From sequence record MT446416.1: a stretch of 64,000 bases of DNA; one strand, written 5' to 3'. Source of the DNA: Escherichia virus TH47. The notes below the pieces were generated by a model. It searched no databases. It saw only the letters and a program-made list of their open reading frames with translations, and was not told the origin of the DNA. Positions 2,939 through 42,278 of the stretch are shown here, piece after piece (the stretch's first letter is position 1; each line of letters begins with the position of its first letter). The position numbers and the translations under genes are program-made.

Positions 2939-3645
2939 AATCCAGCCTCACGTAGCATACTTTTTATTTCATCACATTCCTTTTTGTACTTTATAGTTTT
3001 AACCTCAAAGTAACTAGGATCAATGTATTTAAGTATATACTTGATTTCAGAGTTAGAGAGATTCTTGAAAAACTTATTAGTACTTTCTTTTGGTGCTAAC
3101 CAGATAATCCAAGGTGAAATCTTACCACTCTCAATCCATGCAATTGCACGGGCAGAACTCACATTGGAAAAAAACTTATTCCACTCCAAGTTCAGATTCT
3201 GGCCCCATTCCACCATTGCAACAACACTACGGGAAACAGCGGCGGTGGGAGATTCAGAACGGATACAATCTAATATCCATTCATCCTTTGCTTTATAAGT
3301 ACTCCATTCCATAATAGGACGGTTTCTTACAATTAGACTTTTTACAAAACCATCAATATCTAAAATATCACGGTTGTTCAAATAATAAATTGCAAAATCA
3401 TAAAAATCACTAAAGTACTTTGATTTTATAAAAGCCATTAATGGTTCAACTCCCTTCTTGAAAGGGAAATGGTTTAACTCCATGAATTGCATATAAATGC
3501 GAAAAGCCTCCCTCATGGGGCGGCTATCACGATCTTCGTAACGGTCACGTTTAACACACTTATGTGTGTTAACTGTGTCTTCGCGTTTAAATTCTTTATC
3601 ACAGAACTTACATGTGTATACGGGACTACTTGATTTCTTTGCCAT
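2935..3645 (-). CDS. hypothetical protein (236 aa) with N-terminal Cys/His zinc-finger-like motif
   Basis: Long ORF; N-terminus CKFCDKEF...HKC is zinc-finger-like. Start overlaps the upstream gene. Confidence 0.5.
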   Translation of the reverse strand: MAKKSSSPVYTCKFCDKEFKREDTVNTHKCVKRDRYEDRDSRPMREAFRIYMQFMELNHFPFKKGVEPLMAFIKSKYFSDFYDFAIYYLNNRDILDIDGFVKSLIVRNRPIMEWSTYKAKDEWILDCIRSESPTAAVSRSVVAMVEWGQNLNLEWNKFFSNVSSARAIAWIESGKISPWIIWLAPKESTNKFFKNLSNSEIKYILKYIDPSYFEVKTIKYKKECDEIKSMLREAGL

Positions 3646-4471
3646 ATTTCTTACATTCTTCTTTAAATAATTTCATCATTGATTTCATTTCTTTCTCTTG
3701 CAAACCTATGTCTTCAAGGAAAGACTCGAATGTTTTTTTGTTATATTGCAACAAAACAATTTTATATTCATCTTCGTTCATTTGAGTTGCTATTGAATCT
3801 GGCTGTGTACTTTTAATGAGTTCAAATAATTCATTATTAGCACGCTTGAAACTCTTGGAAAAGTTTAACCAGTTTCGTGGCAATTCCTTACCACCCAACA
3901 TATCATGAACCGAACATAGTAGTTGATATACAAGTTCAGGGTGTTCTTTCATATCCCAGAACCCATCATTAACCATATCATTCAACATAATCAACTGATA
4001 ACGTACAACGTCACTGTCAACCAATGAGATGATCTGTCCACCAGCAATACTAAATTCAGTCATTGCTGCAATCAACTTGTTAGCATCATCATTACTTTGT
4101 ACGGCAAACTTGATACGCCAATCATAGTCACTATGACAGTACTTAGTAACTGATGTTACATTAACACCAGTACTATTGAGTTCTTTGACAAGTTCAGTGA
4201 GTGCTTCTTTACCACCAGCTTTCCACTTACCAAATACGTTTTCCACTTTACTACTAGGGAAAGTTACTTGGAGGGAGTCATCAAGTGAACTTACCCAACG
4301 AAGTACAGTATAAGGCGTAAATTCCTTACGCTCATCTTCGGTCATGTCATTATAGTATTTGTAATCTGCACGGTCAATATGTTTTAGAAATTCAGCAATA
4401 GAAAATGTATGCTGGGTTGGTTTATCGTTTTCGTCTACTGACTTAGCTTTAATATTACTGAAATCTAACAC
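3626..4471 (-). CDS. hypothetical protein (281 aa)
   Basis: Long ORF in the early minus-strand array; no recognisable catalytic motif. Confidence 0.5.
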   Translation of the reverse strand: MLDFSNIKAKSVDENDKPTQHTFSIAEFLKHIDRADYKYYNDMTEDERKEFTPYTVLRWVSSLDDSLQVTFPSSKVENVFGKWKAGGKEALTELVKELNSTGVNVTSVTKYCHSDYDWRIKFAVQSNDDANKLIAAMTEFSIAGGQIISLVDSDVVRYQLIMLNDMVNDGFWDMKEHPELVYQLLCSVHDMLGGKELPRNWLNFSKSFKRANNELFELIKSTQPDSIATQMNEDEYKIVLLQYNKKTFESFLEDIGLQEKEMKSMMKLFKEECKKYGKEIK

Positions 4472-37761: not shown

Positions 37762-38600
37762 CTCACAAGGAGCCAGCACATTGTTGCTGGTTTTTTTTTT
37801 GGTTTTAAACTACAGAATTGATTGAATTGAATTTTGAAAGGAATTAATTATTTTATAGTGAACTCATCTAACTCATTTCATTCGTTAGCTGAAGAATATT
37901 CGTTACTACGTAACTCATATTCATTTCTTATAATTAATTATAAAGAACTTTAAAAGATTTAATACTTGACGGGATTTGTTGAAGACATTTTCATCCCCCC
38001 GCAGGGGAATGAAGACAATAAAAAAGAGACAATTAAGTCTCTTAATTCTTGACGCTGATGGTTTCAGCATTTATTGTATTGCGAATTTCTTAAAATTCAT
38101 TAAGAACGAAAGCGGGTTGCTCTGTTTCTCTCTATCGCAGTCATGTGCAACGGTCGTCAGTCTTAATCATCCTGACACTCACCTGAAAGTCTATACAATC
38201 AAACTTCAGGCTGTTTATTAAATCACTTAATAAACTCCCTTAGCAAATCTGGTAAGGTGCGATCCTTATACATCTATCGAGGAACTCTCTGTATGCTTAT
38301 CGGAGTTCTTTATTGAGCCGTGTCGCCGTGAGGGGTTCAAACTATGCCCACATCTAACGGGTTTCTTCTGCTCATCGCACTGTTGAACTGCTCATCTGCC
38401 ATCTACATTTTCGATAGGATCAGGTTCTAATTTATATGCATTTCTGCATTCAACAGGATTGTCATCACTACAATTAACATTATAGCACCAAATTCAAAAG
38501 TGTCTCACTATTATGGTAAAAAATTTATAAAAAGTACATAATTCTTGTTATCTGAAGTAACGCATAAATATTTTGATAAGAATTAGTTTAGTGGGGATTT
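37762..38600. other. about 840 bp noncoding, iteron-like region with hairpins (candidate origin, regulatory region or ncRNA locus)
   Basis: No plausible ORF (only a 81-codon TTG-initiated ORF without SD). Contains AACTCAT x3, ATTCGTTA x2, TTGAATTGAATT, CTGCTCATC x2, two TTGACG boxes and strong hairpins near 37989-38012 and 38283-38307. Confidence 0.5.
37770..37802 (+). terminator. rho-independent terminator
   Basis: CCAGCAcattgtTGCTGG followed by T11, just after the stop at 37761. Confidence 0.7.
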
Positions 38601-39095
38601 ATGAAGAAAAGATTAAAAGATAGTAAAGAAGCTGCAAACTATCGAAATGAATTACTAAAGAAGCAAAAAGGAATTGATCCTATAATTAAGGAACCAATAA
38701 CTAAGCCAGTACTTGATCACTATCACTTCGAGAATCAACACTGTCGCGGGGTACTCCAGAATGAGATAAACGCCTTTGAGGGTAAGGTTTCCAACGCATG
38801 GAACCGATATGGAAAGCATTTAACTGATATGCCATTACATGAAGTACTAAGAAATCTGGCAGATTATCTTGAAAAGAACAATAACATTCCACCTGAAGAG
38901 CAAGTCATACATCACACTGCACTAACTGTGGATGTTAATAAGTTTAAAAGGCTTCCAGCAACACAGCAAAACGCGATTCTGGAAGGGTTAGGAGTTGTCC
39001 CTGGTAGTAACGTCAAGGAGAGAACTAAGCAAGCCAGAAGGCTCATTAAGGACGGTAAATTAAATATGGTAGATGTAAAAAGAGATACAAAATGA
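38601..39095 (+). CDS. 49: endonuclease VII-like protein (gp49 family), lacking the canonical zinc-ligand Cys pairs
   Basis: LDHYHFENQHCRGVLQNEINAFEGKVSNAWNRYG...LHEVLRNLADYLEK aligns with T4 endo VII HLDHDHELNG...VRGLLCNLCNAAEGQMKHKFNRSG...YLEWLENLLTYLK; 164 aa versus 157 aa. Confidence 0.65.
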   Translation: MKKRLKDSKEAANYRNELLKKQKGIDPIIKEPITKPVLDHYHFENQHCRGVLQNEINAFEGKVSNAWNRYGKHLTDMPLHEVLRNLADYLEKNNNIPPEEQVIHHTALTVDVNKFKRLPATQQNAILEGLGVVPGSNVKERTKQARRLIKDGKLNMVDVKRDTK

Positions 39096-40114
39096 AAATA
39101 TCATTACCAAACGAAATAAACTTAAAACACATAAATTACAATACAAAAATGCCACAAGAATATTTTGATGATTTAAGTAAGAGATTATCAAAATATGACA
39201 TTATTTTTAATGGATTTATAATTGAAGATGAATGGAAAGGTAATAACACGTTAACTTCTATAGAATGTGAAGGAAACCTCTACAACAACTATCGAATTAA
39301 TAAATTATACAGATATATTAAACGTATGGATACAAAAGGATATCAGAAACCTAAAGGTTTTAACTTAACCCCTGAACTATTGGTACAAAACGTCAACGAT
39401 GAATGTATAAAACGTGGTGGTAAGATTGAATTTATTGGTTATAAACAATTTAATGGTGCAAAAACATATTTGGAATTGAAATGTAATGATTTGGAATCAC
39501 ATGATGAACCATATGAGTGGTGTTCAACGATTTATGATAGTTTTGTCGGAAACAATAGACATTTGAATGGTTGTCATAAATGTTCAGGTAGATATCATTA
39601 CACTATAGAAGAACTTAACAATAATATAAATTATTTTTGTGAAACACGTGGATTCGTAAACCCAGTATTGATAACTAATGAAACTATGAATGGTGTTAAT
39701 AGTATTGTTTCATTCACCTGTCATTGTGGTGAGAAAGCAACGATGACATATGATAGTTTATCACGTGCTCGTTTTTGTATATTATGCAGCGAAGGTAGTT
39801 ATAAACAATATATTCCTGGTTCATTGTATGTATTAGAAGTATATAAAAATGATAAACATGTGGCATATAAATTTGGTATATCAAACTATGTCCCAAAACG
39901 CCTCATGGAATATGGAAAATCTCCATGTAATGTTAAGATTATTCATCAATATGATTTTGAAGATGGTTCTATTCCATATAAAATTGAAAATAAAATAAAA
40001 AACTCATTACCAATCAGATATCTTACCAAAAATGAGTTCGGTGTAGGATATACAGAAACGATAGATACAACTTTATACGAAGATTTAATTAATATTATAA
40101 AAAAGGGAGCATAA
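39092..40114 (+). CDS. putative homing endonuclease-like protein (Cys-rich N-terminal region plus C-terminal T5orf172-like domain)
   Basis: 340 aa; C-terminus YKFGISNYVPKRLMEY...GYTETI parallels 27181..28179 and the T5orf172 pattern; multiple CxxC pairs; stop lies in the loop of a bidirectional terminator. Confidence 0.5.
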   Translation: MKISLPNEINLKHINYNTKMPQEYFDDLSKRLSKYDIIFNGFIIEDEWKGNNTLTSIECEGNLYNNYRINKLYRYIKRMDTKGYQKPKGFNLTPELLVQNVNDECIKRGGKIEFIGYKQFNGAKTYLELKCNDLESHDEPYEWCSTIYDSFVGNNRHLNGCHKCSGRYHYTIEELNNNINYFCETRGFVNPVLITNETMNGVNSIVSFTCHCGEKATMTYDSLSRARFCILCSEGSYKQYIPGSLYVLEVYKNDKHVAYKFGISNYVPKRLMEYGKSPCNVKIIHQYDFEDGSIPYKIENKIKNSLPIRYLTKNEFGVGYTETIDTTLYEDLINIIKKGA

Positions 40115-40126
40115 GCTCCCTTTTCT
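40100..40126. terminator. bidirectional terminator between convergent genes
   Basis: aaaaaGGGAGCataaGCTCCCtttt; the stop codon of 39092..40114 lies in the loop; gp46-like gene ends at 40131 on the other strand. Confidence 0.6.
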
Positions 40127-40130
40127 GTTA

Positions 40131-42278
40131 TTAATAGATATCATCAATTGTACAGTAACTTATAGTACTAAAACCATCTTCTTTAGTTACTTTAAGTATA
40201 TGTTCAGTCTTAGAAACTAGTTCTTCTCTATGAGAGATGATATATACATTTTTATTTCTGATAGCAGCCATGTCATTGAAGATTGACCACACTTTAACAA
40301 CACCACTTGAATCAAGACCAACATCACAAGCTTCATCTAGTGCTATTAGATTGATACTTTGGTATAATGACTCATATGTATCACGGAAAGCACATGATAA
40401 AGCAATGTTTACCCTTGTACGCTCACCACGACTAAGCTGTTTATAGTCAAAGTACTGACCACTTTTCTCAATTTCTACACTCAAATCATTCAAGAACACA
40501 ACATTATGTTCAGAACCACACATATCAATGTAATATTGAAGACGTGTATTCAGATACGAAATGTTTTGTTCAATAATACGCTTACGGACATAAGAATCCT
40601 TGTTTAACAACAATTTAACCAAGAAATCTTGGTGATTTGCCATCTTATCAAGGTTATTATAGTCACTATAGTCGATTGGTACTAATGAATCGGTAGTAAG
40701 TGTATTAATTTGTCCAATAAATGTGTTAGTAGTTTTCAATTCACGATCTAATTGCTGTGATAATGAAGTTACTGTCATTTCTAACTCTTTTACTTCAGAT
40801 TTATTCAATGTATCTGGTACTTCTTGAAGAACATGTGCGTTCAGTTCTTCATATGATGACATAAGTTCATTAGCATAGATGTTAATTTGCTCTTCTTCAC
40901 TCTTTTTAATAAGTTCTTGAAGCTTATGCTCATGCATTTGTGCTTCAGTTAGTGTAGAATAGAATGTCACAGGCTTAGGTGGCATATCAAAAATCTCAAT
41001 ACTATCAATTTCCTGAAGTATTGTTTCAATTTCAGAAGTGGAACTATCAATTTTCGATTGAAGTTCATTAATAGTATTTTGAATTTTATCTTTAATAGAC
41101 GAAGTATGTTCATTATGTTCTAATTCGGACATACAAAGTGGACATTTACTACTCTCCACTGTTGCTAATTTGTCCACCTCAGCACGTAACGAACTCTCAT
41201 GACCATTTAAAGCCACCTTTAATGCGTTAAGTTTTTGTTCTTTGAAACGTTTTTGGTTATTATTCTCTTTTAGAATACCCTCCAATTGTTTCCATATCTC
41301 CAACTCATTGTGATTTTCTAATTCAGTACTGATATCAATAGTTTTTAGCTTATCAATACTTACATTTAATGCTAATTTTGCTGTTGCTAGTTCACGGTCA
41401 TATGCATCATACTTCAAAGCTAACTCTTGCACACGTCTTTCTATTTGATCACGAGCAGCATTATGAATAAGAGCTTTCTCTTTCACTTCTGCCAAATCAT
41501 AGAGATCGTTGAAGTCTAAAGTTTTGTAGATATTCAATTCTTCAGTCAACTTAGATACTCTATTATTTTTATCAATCTCAAATTGGTTAGCTTGTTCTTG
41601 TAATGATTCAATACTTTTTTGAATACGTTCATTACTTGCAGCCACAGTTTCAATTTTGAACTTTTCTTGTTCAGCTAAACGTTTAGAATCTTTATACATA
41701 TCCTTTAATAGTTCAGCTTTCTCTGTTAATTGTGTGATGCCCAGAAGTTCCTCAATCATATCACGTTGTTTCTGTGATGATAATGCAAGAAACGGCTCTA
41801 CGTTAGCATTAAGTACTACAATATGTTCAAATAGTAGTTGAGAAATCCCAAGAATCTCGTTTAGATCTTCTTGTGTATCTTTCTTCTCCCCTCTTGACTC
41901 ATCTTCGACCTTATTATCTTTACCTAATGTAATAAAGTTGAAATACGTGGGACTTCTCCCACGCTCGACGAGATATTGTACACCATCTTTCTCGAACTCA
42001 ACAGATACTTCACAGTTTTTAGCATTAGTTTTATTAACTAAGTTTGGAATTTTGATATCGTTACCAATACTTTTTCCAAACAAACCAAAAACTAAACCTT
42101 GAATGATGGCACTTTTACCAACACCATTACGGCGACCGGAACTATCACCACCTTCAATAACTGCATCATTGTTTTGACCAAGAACTAACGATATATCAGC
42201 ACCAGACAAATCAATTACTTGTGGTGCATTGCCAAATGAAAAGAAGTTCCTCATTGATATACGTGTAATGTTTAGCAC
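40131..42278 (-). CDS. 46: SbcC/Rad50-like recombination ATPase (gp46-like)
   Basis: N-terminal Walker A GRRNGVGKSAI, long central coiled coil with CPLC zinc hook, C-terminal signature/Walker B region (LDEACDVGLD). Confidence 0.85.
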   Translation of the reverse strand: MLNITRISMRNFFSFGNAPQVIDLSGADISLVLGQNNDAVIEGGDSSGRRNGVGKSAIIQGLVFGLFGKSIGNDIKIPNLVNKTNAKNCEVSVEFEKDGVQYLVERGRSPTYFNFITLGKDNKVEDESRGEKKDTQEDLNEILGISQLLFEHIVVLNANVEPFLALSSQKQRDMIEELLGITQLTEKAELLKDMYKDSKRLAEQEKFKIETVAASNERIQKSIESLQEQANQFEIDKNNRVSKLTEELNIYKTLDFNDLYDLAEVKEKALIHNAARDQIERRVQELALKYDAYDRELATAKLALNVSIDKLKTIDISTELENHNELEIWKQLEGILKENNNQKRFKEQKLNALKVALNGHESSLRAEVDKLATVESSKCPLCMSELEHNEHTSSIKDKIQNTINELQSKIDSSTSEIETILQEIDSIEIFDMPPKPVTFYSTLTEAQMHEHKLQELIKKSEEEQINIYANELMSSYEELNAHVLQEVPDTLNKSEVKELEMTVTSLSQQLDRELKTTNTFIGQINTLTTDSLVPIDYSDYNNLDKMANHQDFLVKLLLNKDSYVRKRIIEQNISYLNTRLQYYIDMCGSEHNVVFLNDLSVEIEKSGQYFDYKQLSRGERTRVNIALSCAFRDTYESLYQSINLIALDEACDVGLDSSGVVKVWSIFNDMAAIRNKNVYIISHREELVSKTEHILKVTKEDGFSTISYCTIDDIY

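What the first reader, a model, noticed from the sequence alone, without database searches (positions are those of the whole stretch)
38601..39095. Endonuclease VII homolog that has lost the zinc-ligand cysteines
The protein aligns with T4 endonuclease VII across the catalytic region and the following helix, but the N-terminal CxxC is absent and the second pair is replaced by QNEIN. It may be a zinc-independent variant of the Holliday junction resolvase, or it may have changed function. It is translationally coupled to a homing-endonuclease-like gene.
Basis: partly seen in the sequence, partly recalled or inferred. Interest (0 to 1): 0.45.

Follow-up and report, generated by a model that had tools for sequence, protein, structure and literature searches.

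The report
Zinc-site-free endonuclease VII of a jumbo phage
This gene encodes a jumbo phage's version of the T4 DNA-junction-cutting enzyme endonuclease VII; it keeps every catalytic residue and the whole fold but has replaced all four zinc-holding cysteines, as does a large and previously unremarked branch of the family.

Summary
ORF 38601..39095 (+, 164 aa) is a full-length homologue of T4 endonuclease VII. It matches PHROG 423, T4 gp49's own family, at E=1e-35, and the AF2 model (pLDDT 95) matches only T4 endo VII, over 157 columns at TM 0.67-0.69. The catalytic D39, H40, H42, R49, N57 and E60 are kept. The zinc ligands C23/C26/C58/C61 are D26/I29/Q53/I56, and the protein has one cysteine in total. 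This is not a one-off: about 116 of 119 close clusters, and about 125 of the 150 best 50%-identity representatives, lack a complete site. The gene is single-copy, under purifying selection, and the only recognisable junction resolvase in a closely related, fully sequenced genome. It is most likely a working, zinc-independent resolvase. That makes it a new variant of a known kind, of moderate interest.

The downstream gene is an optional homing-endonuclease-like insertion. It sits in the middle of a roughly 1.65-kb gene-conversion tract that includes the 3' two thirds of the endo VII gene.

In passing, directly upstream on the minus strand lies a roughly 450-490-nt structured RNA with very strong covariation. 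It has no Rfam match and occurs in 4-5 copies per Rak2-like jumbo phage genome. It probably deserves more attention than the finding itself.

The parts
38601..39095 (+). Endonuclease VII-type (DHHRN / beta-beta-alpha-Me) nuclease gene, 164 aa, lacking all four zinc-ligand cysteines
   Evidence: ORF. PHROG 423 E=1e-35. AF2 pLDDT 95.2. Foldseek 1e7l_A TM 0.67/0.69 over 157 columns. 119 homologous clusters.
38593..38597 (+). Shine-Dalgarno-like GGGGA, 3 nt before the ATG
   Evidence: Read from the sequence. Conserved as GTGGGGA/GTGAGGA in fEgEco12, 121Q and ph0011.
38563..38570 (+). CATAAATA, one mismatch from the T4 late-promoter consensus TATAAATA (121Q has the exact TATAAATA here). A possible late promoter; weak evidence.
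   Evidence: Conserved block in the alignment. TATAAATA is not enriched in the window overall. A gp55-like late sigma factor gene lies three genes away in relatives. This is inference only.
38676..38687 (+). Codons D26-P27-I28-I29, which replace the N-terminal CxxC (T4 C23, C26)
   Evidence: Alignments. D is invariant at the first position in the close clade.
38715..38747 (+). Catalytic D39-H40-Y41-H42 ... R49 (T4 D40, H41, H43, R54). Also contains the only cysteine, C48.
   Evidence: D39, H40, H42 and R49 are invariant columns in 71 sequences and 98-100% conserved in 152 representatives.
38757..38780 (+). Q53-N54-E55-I56-N57-A58-F59-E60. Q53 and I56 replace the second CxxC (T4 C58, C61). N57 = metal-binding N62 and E60 = E65.
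39092..40114 (+). Optional homing-endonuclease-like gene (340 aa) with a T5orf172/MUG113 domain in its C-terminal part. Its start overlaps the endo VII stop (ATGA). Its last codons (KKGA*) and its terminator are the former 3' end of the endo VII gene.
   Evidence: Pfam MUG113 at 24.0 bits (cut-off 22.3) and PHROG 681 at E=3e-41. Absent in 121Q and fEgEco12. A roughly 110-bp remnant remains in ph0011. The same arrangement occurs in RaK2, at 48% aa identity.
40101..40124 (+). Terminator-like hairpin shared with the convergent SbcC/gp46-like gene (40131..42278, minus strand)
   Evidence: The homologous hairpin directly follows the endo VII stop in 121Q and fEgEco12.
38747..40400 (.). Gene-conversion (mosaic) tract around the homing-endonuclease-like gene. 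Identity to fEgEco12 is 63-78% inside it and 99-100% on both sides. Within the tract, 40199-40398 is 97-100% identical to ph0011.
   Evidence: Sliding identity and mismatch positions.

Best explanation
The gene encodes the phage's Holliday-junction resolvase and DNA-debranching nuclease, an orthologue of T4 gp49 (endonuclease VII). By analogy with T4, it should act as a homodimer of beta-beta-alpha-Me (His-Me finger) subunits. D39 and N57 would hold the catalytic Mg2+. H40 would act as general base, assisted by H42, R49 and E60. The enzyme would cut branched recombination and replication intermediates so that the roughly 350-kb genome can be packaged. The fold no longer depends on the structural Zn(Cys)4 knuckle that ties the N-terminal loop to the start of the long helix in T4 endo VII. 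The first ligand of each pair has become polar (D26; Q53, which is H, D, N, E or S in relatives). The second has become aliphatic or small (I29; I56, which is V, T, S or A in relatives). I infer that a direct polar contact or helix cap, plus hydrophobic packing, substitutes for the metal. Shown here: homology, the residue replacements, the confident full-length fold prediction, purifying selection, single-copy status, and the breadth of the cysteine-less subfamily. Inferred: zinc independence, the dimeric state, junction cleavage, and the structural way the site is replaced.
For: - **Family.** PHROG 423 at E=1e-35, and T4 gp49 itself belongs to PHROG 423.
- **Fold.** The AF2 model has pLDDT 95.2, with the blocks holding the former zinc site at 98. 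Its only significant PDB matches are T4 endo VII chains, over 157-162 columns, that is the full length including the C-terminal domain.
- **Catalytic residues.** D39, H40, H42, R49 and N57 are invariant in 71 homologues and 98-100% conserved in 152 diverse representatives.
- **Zinc ligands.** They are absent in about 116 of 119 close clusters. Only 25 of about 150 best 50%-identity representatives have CCCC or CCHC. The zinc-ligand-less and zinc-containing groups differ most sharply at the four ligand columns; only a few other columns shift, among them T4 E65.
- **Selection.** dN/dS is 0.06-0.18 among Asteriusvirus alleles.
- **Copy number.** There is one hit per genome with a family HMM over all six-frame ORFs of the window and of the complete fEgEco12 genome.
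- **No rival resolvase.** No RuvC, RusA, Rap or endo I is annotated among the 670 genes of fEgEco12, whereas UvsX, UvsY, gp32, gp46, gp47 and helicases are present.
- **Literature.** Iyer et al. 2021 (PMC7824862) report the endo VII-like resolvase in their jumbo-phage subgroup 2.2 and part of group 4, in a pattern nearly complementary to RuvC. I did not confirm that the Rak2/121Q phages belong to that subgroup.
- **Position.** The gene sits next to gp46/gp47/gp55-like genes in 121Q, fEgEco12, ph0011 and RaK2, and the same gene is found in GAP32 and CBB.
Against: - There is no biochemical or metal-content evidence for any cysteine-less member. The solved structures matched by sequence or fold search are all T4 endo VII.
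- In T4 endo VII, C23S and C61S abolish DNA binding and activity (Giraud-Panis et al. 1995, as summarised in PMC6083498). Loss of the site therefore needs compensation, and that compensation is inferred, not seen.
- I could not inspect model coordinates, so the D26-Q53 contact is untested.
- The Pfam score is below the gathering threshold.
- E65 is replaced by L or I in about half of the cysteine-less representatives, though not in this protein. The subfamily may therefore not be mechanistically uniform.
- The 'only resolvase' argument rests on annotation of a 92%-identical relative and on one family HMM. It is not an exhaustive profile search.
Confidence: 0.8

Rival explanations
1. The protein still binds a structural metal, but through a non-cysteine or partly new ligand set. 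Candidates are D26 with Q53, H47, H73 or C48, or ligands contributed across the dimer. In that case it would be 'cysteine-less' but not metal-independent.
For: Position 1 is always D or C, and position 3 is almost always a potential ligand (H, D, Q, N, E or S) across about 125 representatives. C48, H73 and H104 are well conserved. Vequintavirinae homologues such as FFH2 carry four cysteines at other positions.
Against: Two oxygen or nitrogen ligands at best remain at the old site, while positions 2 and 4 are aliphatic or small. That pattern fits packing better than coordination. D/D, D/Q and D/S pairs are poor zinc sites. The query has a single Cys. AF2 predicts the region with pLDDT 98 without any metal, although AF2 also does that for genuine zinc sites.
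Confidence: 0.1
2. The protein has changed function. It might be a sequence-specific or homing-type nuclease using the endo VII motif, like F-CphI, or a nicking or mismatch enzyme, with junction resolution done by something else.
For: The endo VII catalytic motif is used by a homing endonuclease (F-CphI) and a restriction enzyme (Hpy99I) (PMC6083498; PMC5714182). The gene sits next to mobile endonuclease genes.
Against: - F-CphI and Hpy99I share only the catalytic domain and have other DNA-binding modules. This protein matches T4 endo VII over its whole length, with no extra domain.
- It is a single-copy gene kept at the same place in six related jumbo phage genomes examined, not an optional one.
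- No alternative resolvase is annotated in the related genome.
Confidence: 0.06
3. It is a decaying or inactive remnant (a pseudo-enzyme) that lost its zinc site and its activity.
For: Loss of all four ligands that are needed in T4. A sub-threshold Pfam score.
Against: Catalytic residues are invariant over more than 100 clusters, and lengths are conserved at 157-168 aa in most of those clusters. dN/dS is 0.06-0.18. The fold prediction is very confident. The subfamily is large and old, spanning Asteriusvirus, Alcyoneusvirus, Mimasvirus, Eneladusvirus and Vequintavirinae.
Confidence: 0.03

Closest known systems
Bacteriophage T4 endonuclease VII (gp49; PDB 1EN7, 1E7L, 2QNC; Pfam PF02945; PHROG 423)
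   Same: Same PHROG. Same length class (164 vs 157 aa). The same catalytic D-H-x-H...R...N...E residues. The same predicted full-length architecture: N-terminal beta-beta-alpha-Me domain, long helix and C-terminal helical domain. The same genomic company (gp46/gp47, gp55, UvsX/UvsY, gp32). Presumably the same role, debranching DNA before packaging.
   Different: About 20% identity. All four zinc-ligand cysteines are replaced (D, I, Q, I). D42 is Y. There is a 4-5-residue deletion in the beta-hairpin loop and a 4-residue insertion (IPPE) after the long helix. The Pfam score is below threshold.
Endo VII of phiKMV-like Autographiviridae (e.g. Pectobacterium phage PhiM1 gp25, Pseudomonas phage phi-2 SBWP25_0021)
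   Same: Homologous; found by tblastn with the query at 30-37% identity. Same catalytic residues.
   Different: These keep a complete metal site of the CCHC type (C-x2-C ... H-x2-C).
Endo VII of Vequintavirinae (rV5-like; e.g. phage FFH2 ORF90)
   Same: The closest cultured relatives outside the jumbo phages (47% identity over residues 5-117). They also lack the canonical ligands (D..L / S..T at the four positions).
   Different: They carry four cysteines at other, non-homologous positions, and their C-terminal part is different and longer.
DHHRN nucleases using the endo VII motif for other jobs: homing endonuclease F-CphI, restriction enzyme Hpy99I
   Same: The same catalytic motif (D, H, H, R, N).
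   Different: Those proteins share only the catalytic domain, keep the CX2-4C...CX2C zinc site, and carry other DNA-recognition modules (PMC6083498; PMC2699513).
Families that lost a structural zinc site yet kept fold and function: the 'zincless finger' of human NEIL1 in the Fpg/Nei family, and the Cys-less (C-) forms of zinc-ribbon ribosomal proteins. These come from my own knowledge; PMC3188539 discusses zinc-finger gain and loss in Fpg/Nei.
   Same: The same evolutionary phenomenon: the metal knuckle is replaced by side-chain contacts while the fold and activity persist.
   Different: Unrelated folds and enzymes. For endo VII this replacement has, as far as my searches show, not been described or tested.

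Membership tests
T4 endonuclease VII family (PHROG 423 / Pfam PF02945 / 'DHHRN') | Significant profile match to the family model | tested here: met
   PHROG 423 at E=1e-35 over residues 1-147, and T4 gp49 hits the same PHROG at 5e-61. Pfam PF02945, by contrast, gives only 17.7 bits against a 23.6-bit cut-off, which is not met.
T4 endonuclease VII family (PHROG 423 / Pfam PF02945 / 'DHHRN') | Conserved catalytic residues D40, H41, H43, R54, N62 (the DHHRN motif of Fang et al. 2018) | tested here: met
   D39, H40, H42, R49 and N57 are present and invariant in 71 homologues. E65 = E60 is also present.
T4 endonuclease VII family (PHROG 423 / Pfam PF02945 / 'DHHRN') | Structural zinc site CX2-4C ... 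CX2C (C23, C26, C58, C61) | tested here: not met
   The four positions are D26, I29, Q53 and I56, and the whole protein has one Cys. The feature is described as highly conserved in the family (PMC6083498), but it is not part of the five residues that name the family. I therefore file the protein as a zinc-ligand-less subfamily, not as a canonical member.
T4 endonuclease VII family (PHROG 423 / Pfam PF02945 / 'DHHRN') | Full-length fold: beta-beta-alpha-Me domain, long helix and C-terminal helical domain | tested here: met
   The AF2 model (pLDDT 95.2) aligns to 1e7l_A over 157 columns at TM 0.67/0.69 and to 2qnf_A at TM 0.63/0.65. No other significant PDB match. This is a prediction, not an experiment.
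T4 endonuclease VII family (PHROG 423 / Pfam PF02945 / 'DHHRN') | Domain-swapped homodimer | not tested
   Only a monomer could be modelled. The extended shape of the model matches the T4 protomer, which is only suggestive.
T4 endonuclease VII family (PHROG 423 / Pfam PF02945 / 'DHHRN') | Mg2+-dependent, structure-selective cleavage of four-way junctions and other branched DNA | not testable with these tools
   Needs enzyme assays.
Free-standing homing endonuclease gene (for the downstream ORF 39092..40114) | Nuclease domain of a family used by mobile endonucleases | tested here: met
   MUG113 (PF13455) at 24.0 bits against a 22.3-bit cut-off. T5orf172 scores 17.4 bits, below its cut-off of 20. 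PHROG 681 'endonuclease' at E=3e-41.
Free-standing homing endonuclease gene (for the downstream ORF 39092..40114) | Optional presence between conserved genes, with empty and decayed sites in close relatives | tested here: met
   Empty site in 121Q and fEgEco12, a roughly 110-bp remnant in ph0011, and an intact copy here and in RaK2-like phages.
Free-standing homing endonuclease gene (for the downstream ORF 39092..40114) | Co-conversion of flanking sequence | tested here: met
   The divergent patch at about 38747-40400 is embedded in sequence 99-100% identical to fEgEco12.
Free-standing homing endonuclease gene (for the downstream ORF 39092..40114) | Site-specific cleavage of the empty allele | not testable with these tools
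   Needs cleavage assays or co-infection crosses.

The most novel reading that the evidence does not exclude
The cysteine-less endo VII subfamily would be an adaptive, truly metal-knuckle-free redesign of the resolvase, not mere drift. The invariant Asp at ligand position 1 would cap the long helix or bridge to position 3. That would make DNA debranching and packaging independent of cellular zinc, for example under host zinc limitation, or resistant to thiol oxidation. The design would have arisen, or spread, repeatedly across unrelated phage groups: Rak2-like jumbo phages, Vequintavirinae and many uncultured lineages.
Probability: 0.12. Interest if true: 0.55.

Novelty: new variant of a known kind. 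Interest (0 to 1): 0.35.

Why it matters
**What it would change.** T4 endonuclease VII is the textbook phage junction resolvase. Its zinc site is treated as a hallmark of the family: the family pattern is described as DHDH flanked by CX2-4C and CX2C, and in T4 the C23S and C61S mutants are inactive. A large natural subfamily that has dispensed with all four ligands has three consequences.
- **A natural experiment.** It shows how a structural zinc knuckle can be replaced.
- **A testable pattern.** Position 1 is D or C, position 3 is polar, and positions 2 and 4 are aliphatic or small.
- **A practical warning.** Pfam-based annotation misses these proteins, and many copies are labelled 'hypothetical protein'.

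**Limits.** The enzyme's role itself is ordinary, and loss of structural zinc sites is known in other families. The interest is moderate and mainly for structural enzymologists.

**Other value in the locus.** It is a clean example of homing-endonuclease spread: intact, decayed and empty sites, plus a mapped conversion tract. It also lies next to an apparently undescribed large structured RNA.

Tried and rejected
- **Pfam alone.** PF02945 is below its cut-off. It would have wrongly suggested 'not endo VII'; PHROG and fold evidence overrule it.
- **PDB sequence search.** phmmer gives only E=0.08 to T4 endo VII, which is too weak alone. A weak hit to a designed repeat protein (8fje) was dismissed as low-complexity helical similarity.
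- **Misalignment hiding cysteines.** Rejected, because the protein has a single Cys.
- **A second, cysteine-containing endo VII paralogue.** None found in the window or in the complete fEgEco12 genome.
- **T4-type late promoter.** TATAAATA is not enriched in the window: 6 found against 7.9 expected. The CATAAATA upstream of the gene is therefore only a weak lead. The sigma-70 scan near the gene is at chance level.
- **Reading 670 annotation rows of fEgEco12 for other resolvases**. This gave a negative result limited by annotation quality. I did not run profile searches on all proteins.
- **The upstream RNA.** Rfam E-value scans of the window region and of four other copies found no family. The MFE z-score is uninformative, at -2.8 on both strands. 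nhmmer found no similarity to the four RNA-seq-defined lncRNAs of the related phage PA5oct. No covariance model was built, because the alignment exceeds the size and time limits.
- **Model coordinates.** They could not be accessed, so the predicted D26-Q53 contact could not be measured.

Full report
**What the window is.** The region around the finding is about 92% identical in DNA to Escherichia phage fEgEco12 and relatives (BF17, Ecwhy_1) and about 86% identical to 121Q, the type of Asteriusvirus. These are roughly 350-kb 'Rak2-like' jumbo myoviruses with a T4-type replication and recombination gene set. In all of them the matching gene is annotated 'endonuclease VII' or left as 'hypothetical protein'.

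**The observation.** ORF 38601..39095 (+) encodes 164 aa and is preceded by GGGGA.
- Pfam gives only a sub-threshold PF02945 hit: 17.7 bits against a 23.6-bit cut-off.
- PHROG 423 'endonuclease VII' matches at E=1e-35 over residues 1-147. T4 gp49 itself is a PHROG 423 member, at 5e-61.
- In MAFFT alignments with T4 endo VII and with 119 database homologues, the catalytic residues are all present: D39, H40, H42, R49, N57 and E60 correspond to T4 D40, H41, H43, R54, N62 and E65.
- The four zinc ligands C23, C26, C58 and C61 are D26, I29, Q53 and I56.
- The N-terminal placement is unambiguous. A canonical relative reads QKGICPICTNKITRPVLDHQH where the query reads QKGIDPIIKEPITKPVLDHYH, with no gap.
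- The protein has one cysteine in all (C48), so no alignment could restore a Cys4 site.

**Fold.** An AlphaFold2 model built on 71 homologues has mean pLDDT 95.2, with the 10-residue blocks containing the former zinc site at 98. Foldseek against the PDB returns only T4 endo VII chains as significant. 1e7l_A scores E=5e-7 at TM 0.67/0.69 over 157 columns, and 2qnf_A scores TM 0.63/0.65. The match therefore covers the whole protein, including the C-terminal helical domain. I could not read the coordinates, so how D26, I29, Q53 and I56 pack remains an inference.

**Cysteine loss is a subfamily trait.**
- Of the 119 clusters found with the query, only one keeps all four cysteines. D at position 1 is invariant in the close clade. 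Position 3 is Q, D, E or N. Positions 2 and 4 are I, T, L, V, S or C.
- A profile search of 1.84 billion 50%-identity representatives gives 1,643 hits at E<=1e-3. Among the best 150, 15 are CCCC and 10 CCHC, and about 125 have at most two possible ligands.
- D, H, H, R and N are 98-100% conserved in both groups. The columns that most sharply separate zinc-ligand-less from zinc-containing sequences are the four ligand columns. A few other columns also shift, among them T4 E65, where zinc-ligand-less sequences have L most often.
- The ranking is biased towards the query's own type, so this shows breadth, not the proportion in the whole family.
- Among cultured phages, tblastn finds homologues in 515 records. 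Full-length cysteine-less forms occur in Asteriusvirus, Alcyoneusvirus (RaK2, K64-1) and Erwinia jumbo phages, and the gene is also annotated in Mimasvirus (GAP32, CBB).
- Vequintavirinae (FFH2) also lack the canonical ligands but have cysteines elsewhere. phiKMV-like podoviruses (PhiM1, phi-2) keep a CCHC site.

**Is it functional, and as what?**
- dN/dS among the window, fEgEco12 and 121Q alleles is 0.06-0.18. The window allele is mosaic (see below), so the values that involve it mix two histories.
- A family HMM run over every six-frame ORF of the window and of the complete fEgEco12 genome finds exactly one member in each.
- The 670 annotated genes of fEgEco12 include UvsX/RecA, UvsY-like, gp32, gp46/gp47, helicases, topoisomerase II and ligase. 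They include no RuvC, RusA, Rap or T7-type endo I.
- Iyer et al. 2021 likewise list the endo VII-like enzyme as the resolvase of one jumbo-phage subgroup (their 2.2) and part of another, in a pattern nearly complementary to RuvC (PMC7824862). I did not check that this subgroup is the Rak2/121Q clade.
- The gene keeps its place between the baseplate-hub operon and the convergent gp46/gp47/gp55 genes in 121Q, fEgEco12, ph0011 and RaK2. In GAP32 and CBB it likewise follows the gene and small ORF that sit downstream of the baseplate hub in the other phages.

Together these points make a working junction resolvase and debranching enzyme the best reading (confidence 0.8).

The literature I could search describes the family as DHDH flanked by CX2-4C and CX2C. 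It reports that T4 C23S and C61S are inactive and no longer bind DNA (PMC6083498). I found no mention of natural cysteine-less members. The proposed mechanism of replacement is an inference from the substitution pattern alone: a polar pair at positions 1 and 3 and packing at positions 2 and 4. It is analogous to the 'zincless finger' of NEIL1, which I cite from my own knowledge.

**The downstream gene and the mosaic.** ORF 39092..40114 (340 aa) starts inside the endo VII stop (ATGA).
- It carries a MUG113/T5orf172-type nuclease domain and matches PHROG 681 at E=3e-41.
- It is absent from 121Q and fEgEco12. There the endo VII gene ends ...DIKKGS* and is followed 18 bp later by the convergent gp46-like gene.
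- In the window the endo VII tail is ...DVKRDTK*, and the inserted ORF ends ...IIKKGA* just before the old terminator. The insertion therefore sits within an ATAAAAA repeat and borrows the resident stop and terminator.
- RaK2-like Klebsiella phages have the same arrangement, with a 48%-identical protein.
- ph0011 retains only a roughly 110-bp remnant, with the ATG mutated to ATA.
- The window is 99-100% identical to fEgEco12 on both sides but only 63-78% identical from about 38747 to about 40400. That patch is the last 350 nt of endo VII, the insertion and the last roughly 270 nt of the gp46-like gene. Within 40199-40398 the window is 97-100% identical to ph0011.

This is the signature of homing with co-conversion from a ph0011-like donor. 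The left boundary falls at codon 49, so residues 50-164 of this endo VII, including Q53 and I56, came in with the mobile gene. Both donor and recipient alleles were already cysteine-less. 'Translational coupling' is supported only in the sense of overlapping stop and start codons.

**Noticed in passing: a structured RNA upstream.** The 840-bp 'intergenic' stretch before endo VII has no conserved ORF. Yet it is better conserved than the flanking genes: 95-99% identical to 121Q, against 72-89% for the coding flanks.
- blastn finds it at 68-75% identity in Salmonella, Erwinia, Serratia, Cronobacter, Pectobacterium and Yersinia jumbo phages, in 4-5 places per genome. fEgEco12 has four copies, all in gene-free gaps and all in one orientation.
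- On the window's minus strand there is an extended -10 promoter (TGnTATAAT, 38508->38479) and a terminator hairpin (38043->38024).
- An alignment of 24 copies supports a 114-pair, 20-helix structure. In it, 94.4% of cells are paired against about 41% when partners are slid. 71 pairs show changes on both sides. The covariation score is 0.433 against 0.06-0.08 for slid controls, and 0 of 500 shuffles reach it.
- No Rfam family matches.
- A 21-nt core motif occurs almost only in IMG/VR contigs from this clade, most of them 170-380 kb, plus one Citrobacter contig.
- It shows no sequence similarity to the four lncRNAs defined by RNA-seq in phage PA5oct.

This looks like an undescribed large ncRNA family. 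Its function is unknown, and it is probably the most interesting thing in this stretch.

**Verdict.** The finding is real and correctly described. The gene is a zinc-ligand-less member of the endo VII family and most likely still the phage's resolvase. It is a new variant of a known kind and of moderate interest (0.35).

Noticed in passing
window 37983-38475, minus strand (promoter-like -10 at 38484->38479; terminator hairpin 38043->38024; conserved palindrome about 38010-37985): A candidate new large structured ncRNA of about 450-490 nt lies directly upstream of, and divergent from, the endo VII gene. It contains no conserved ORF, yet it is better conserved than the neighbouring genes. It occurs in 4-5 paralogous copies per Rak2-like jumbo phage genome. 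The consensus structure has 114 pairs in 20 helices with very strong covariation: 71 pairs with double changes, 94% of cells paired against 41% in slid controls, and 0 of 500 shuffles reaching it. There is no Rfam match. Its core motif is found almost only in viral contigs of this clade, most of them 170-380 kb.
   Followed up: partly
window ~38747-40400: This is a gene-conversion tract. The window is 99-100% identical to phage fEgEco12 on both sides but only 63-78% identical across the 3' 350 nt of endo VII, the inserted endonuclease gene and the last roughly 270 nt of the SbcC/gp46-like gene. Part of the tract is 97-100% identical to phage ph0011, which carries a decayed remnant of the insertion.
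   Followed up: yes
window 39060-39100 and 40085-40124: The inserted ORF has no stop codon or terminator of its own. Its last codons (KKGA*) and the hairpin that follows are the original 3' end of the endo VII gene (DIKKGS* in 121Q). A 7-bp ATAAAAA repeat flanks the insertion. RaK2 shows the same structure.
   Followed up: yes
L038 (Citrobacter amalonaticus NZ_JBALIF010000001.1) 3532-4096: A full-length copy of the jumbo-phage RNA element (nhmmer E=2.5e-89) lies on a 620-kb contig labelled as a bacterial genome. This could be a resident or contaminating jumbo phage, or a mis-binned contig.
   Followed up: no
window 39092-40114 (protein residues ~60-235): The N-terminal two thirds of the homing-endonuclease-like protein contain repeated Cys-containing segments (for example CHKCSGRY and CILCSEG). 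These may be zinc-binding DNA-recognition modules. No Pfam family matched that part.
   Followed up: no
fEgEco12 record 330398-348732 (L014 30398-48732): This close relative has a run of about 14 tandem paralogous minus-strand genes of about 370-400 aa, annotated 'chromosome condensation regulator' or 'DNA condensation protein'. It lies outside the window and was seen only while reading the annotation.
   Followed up: no
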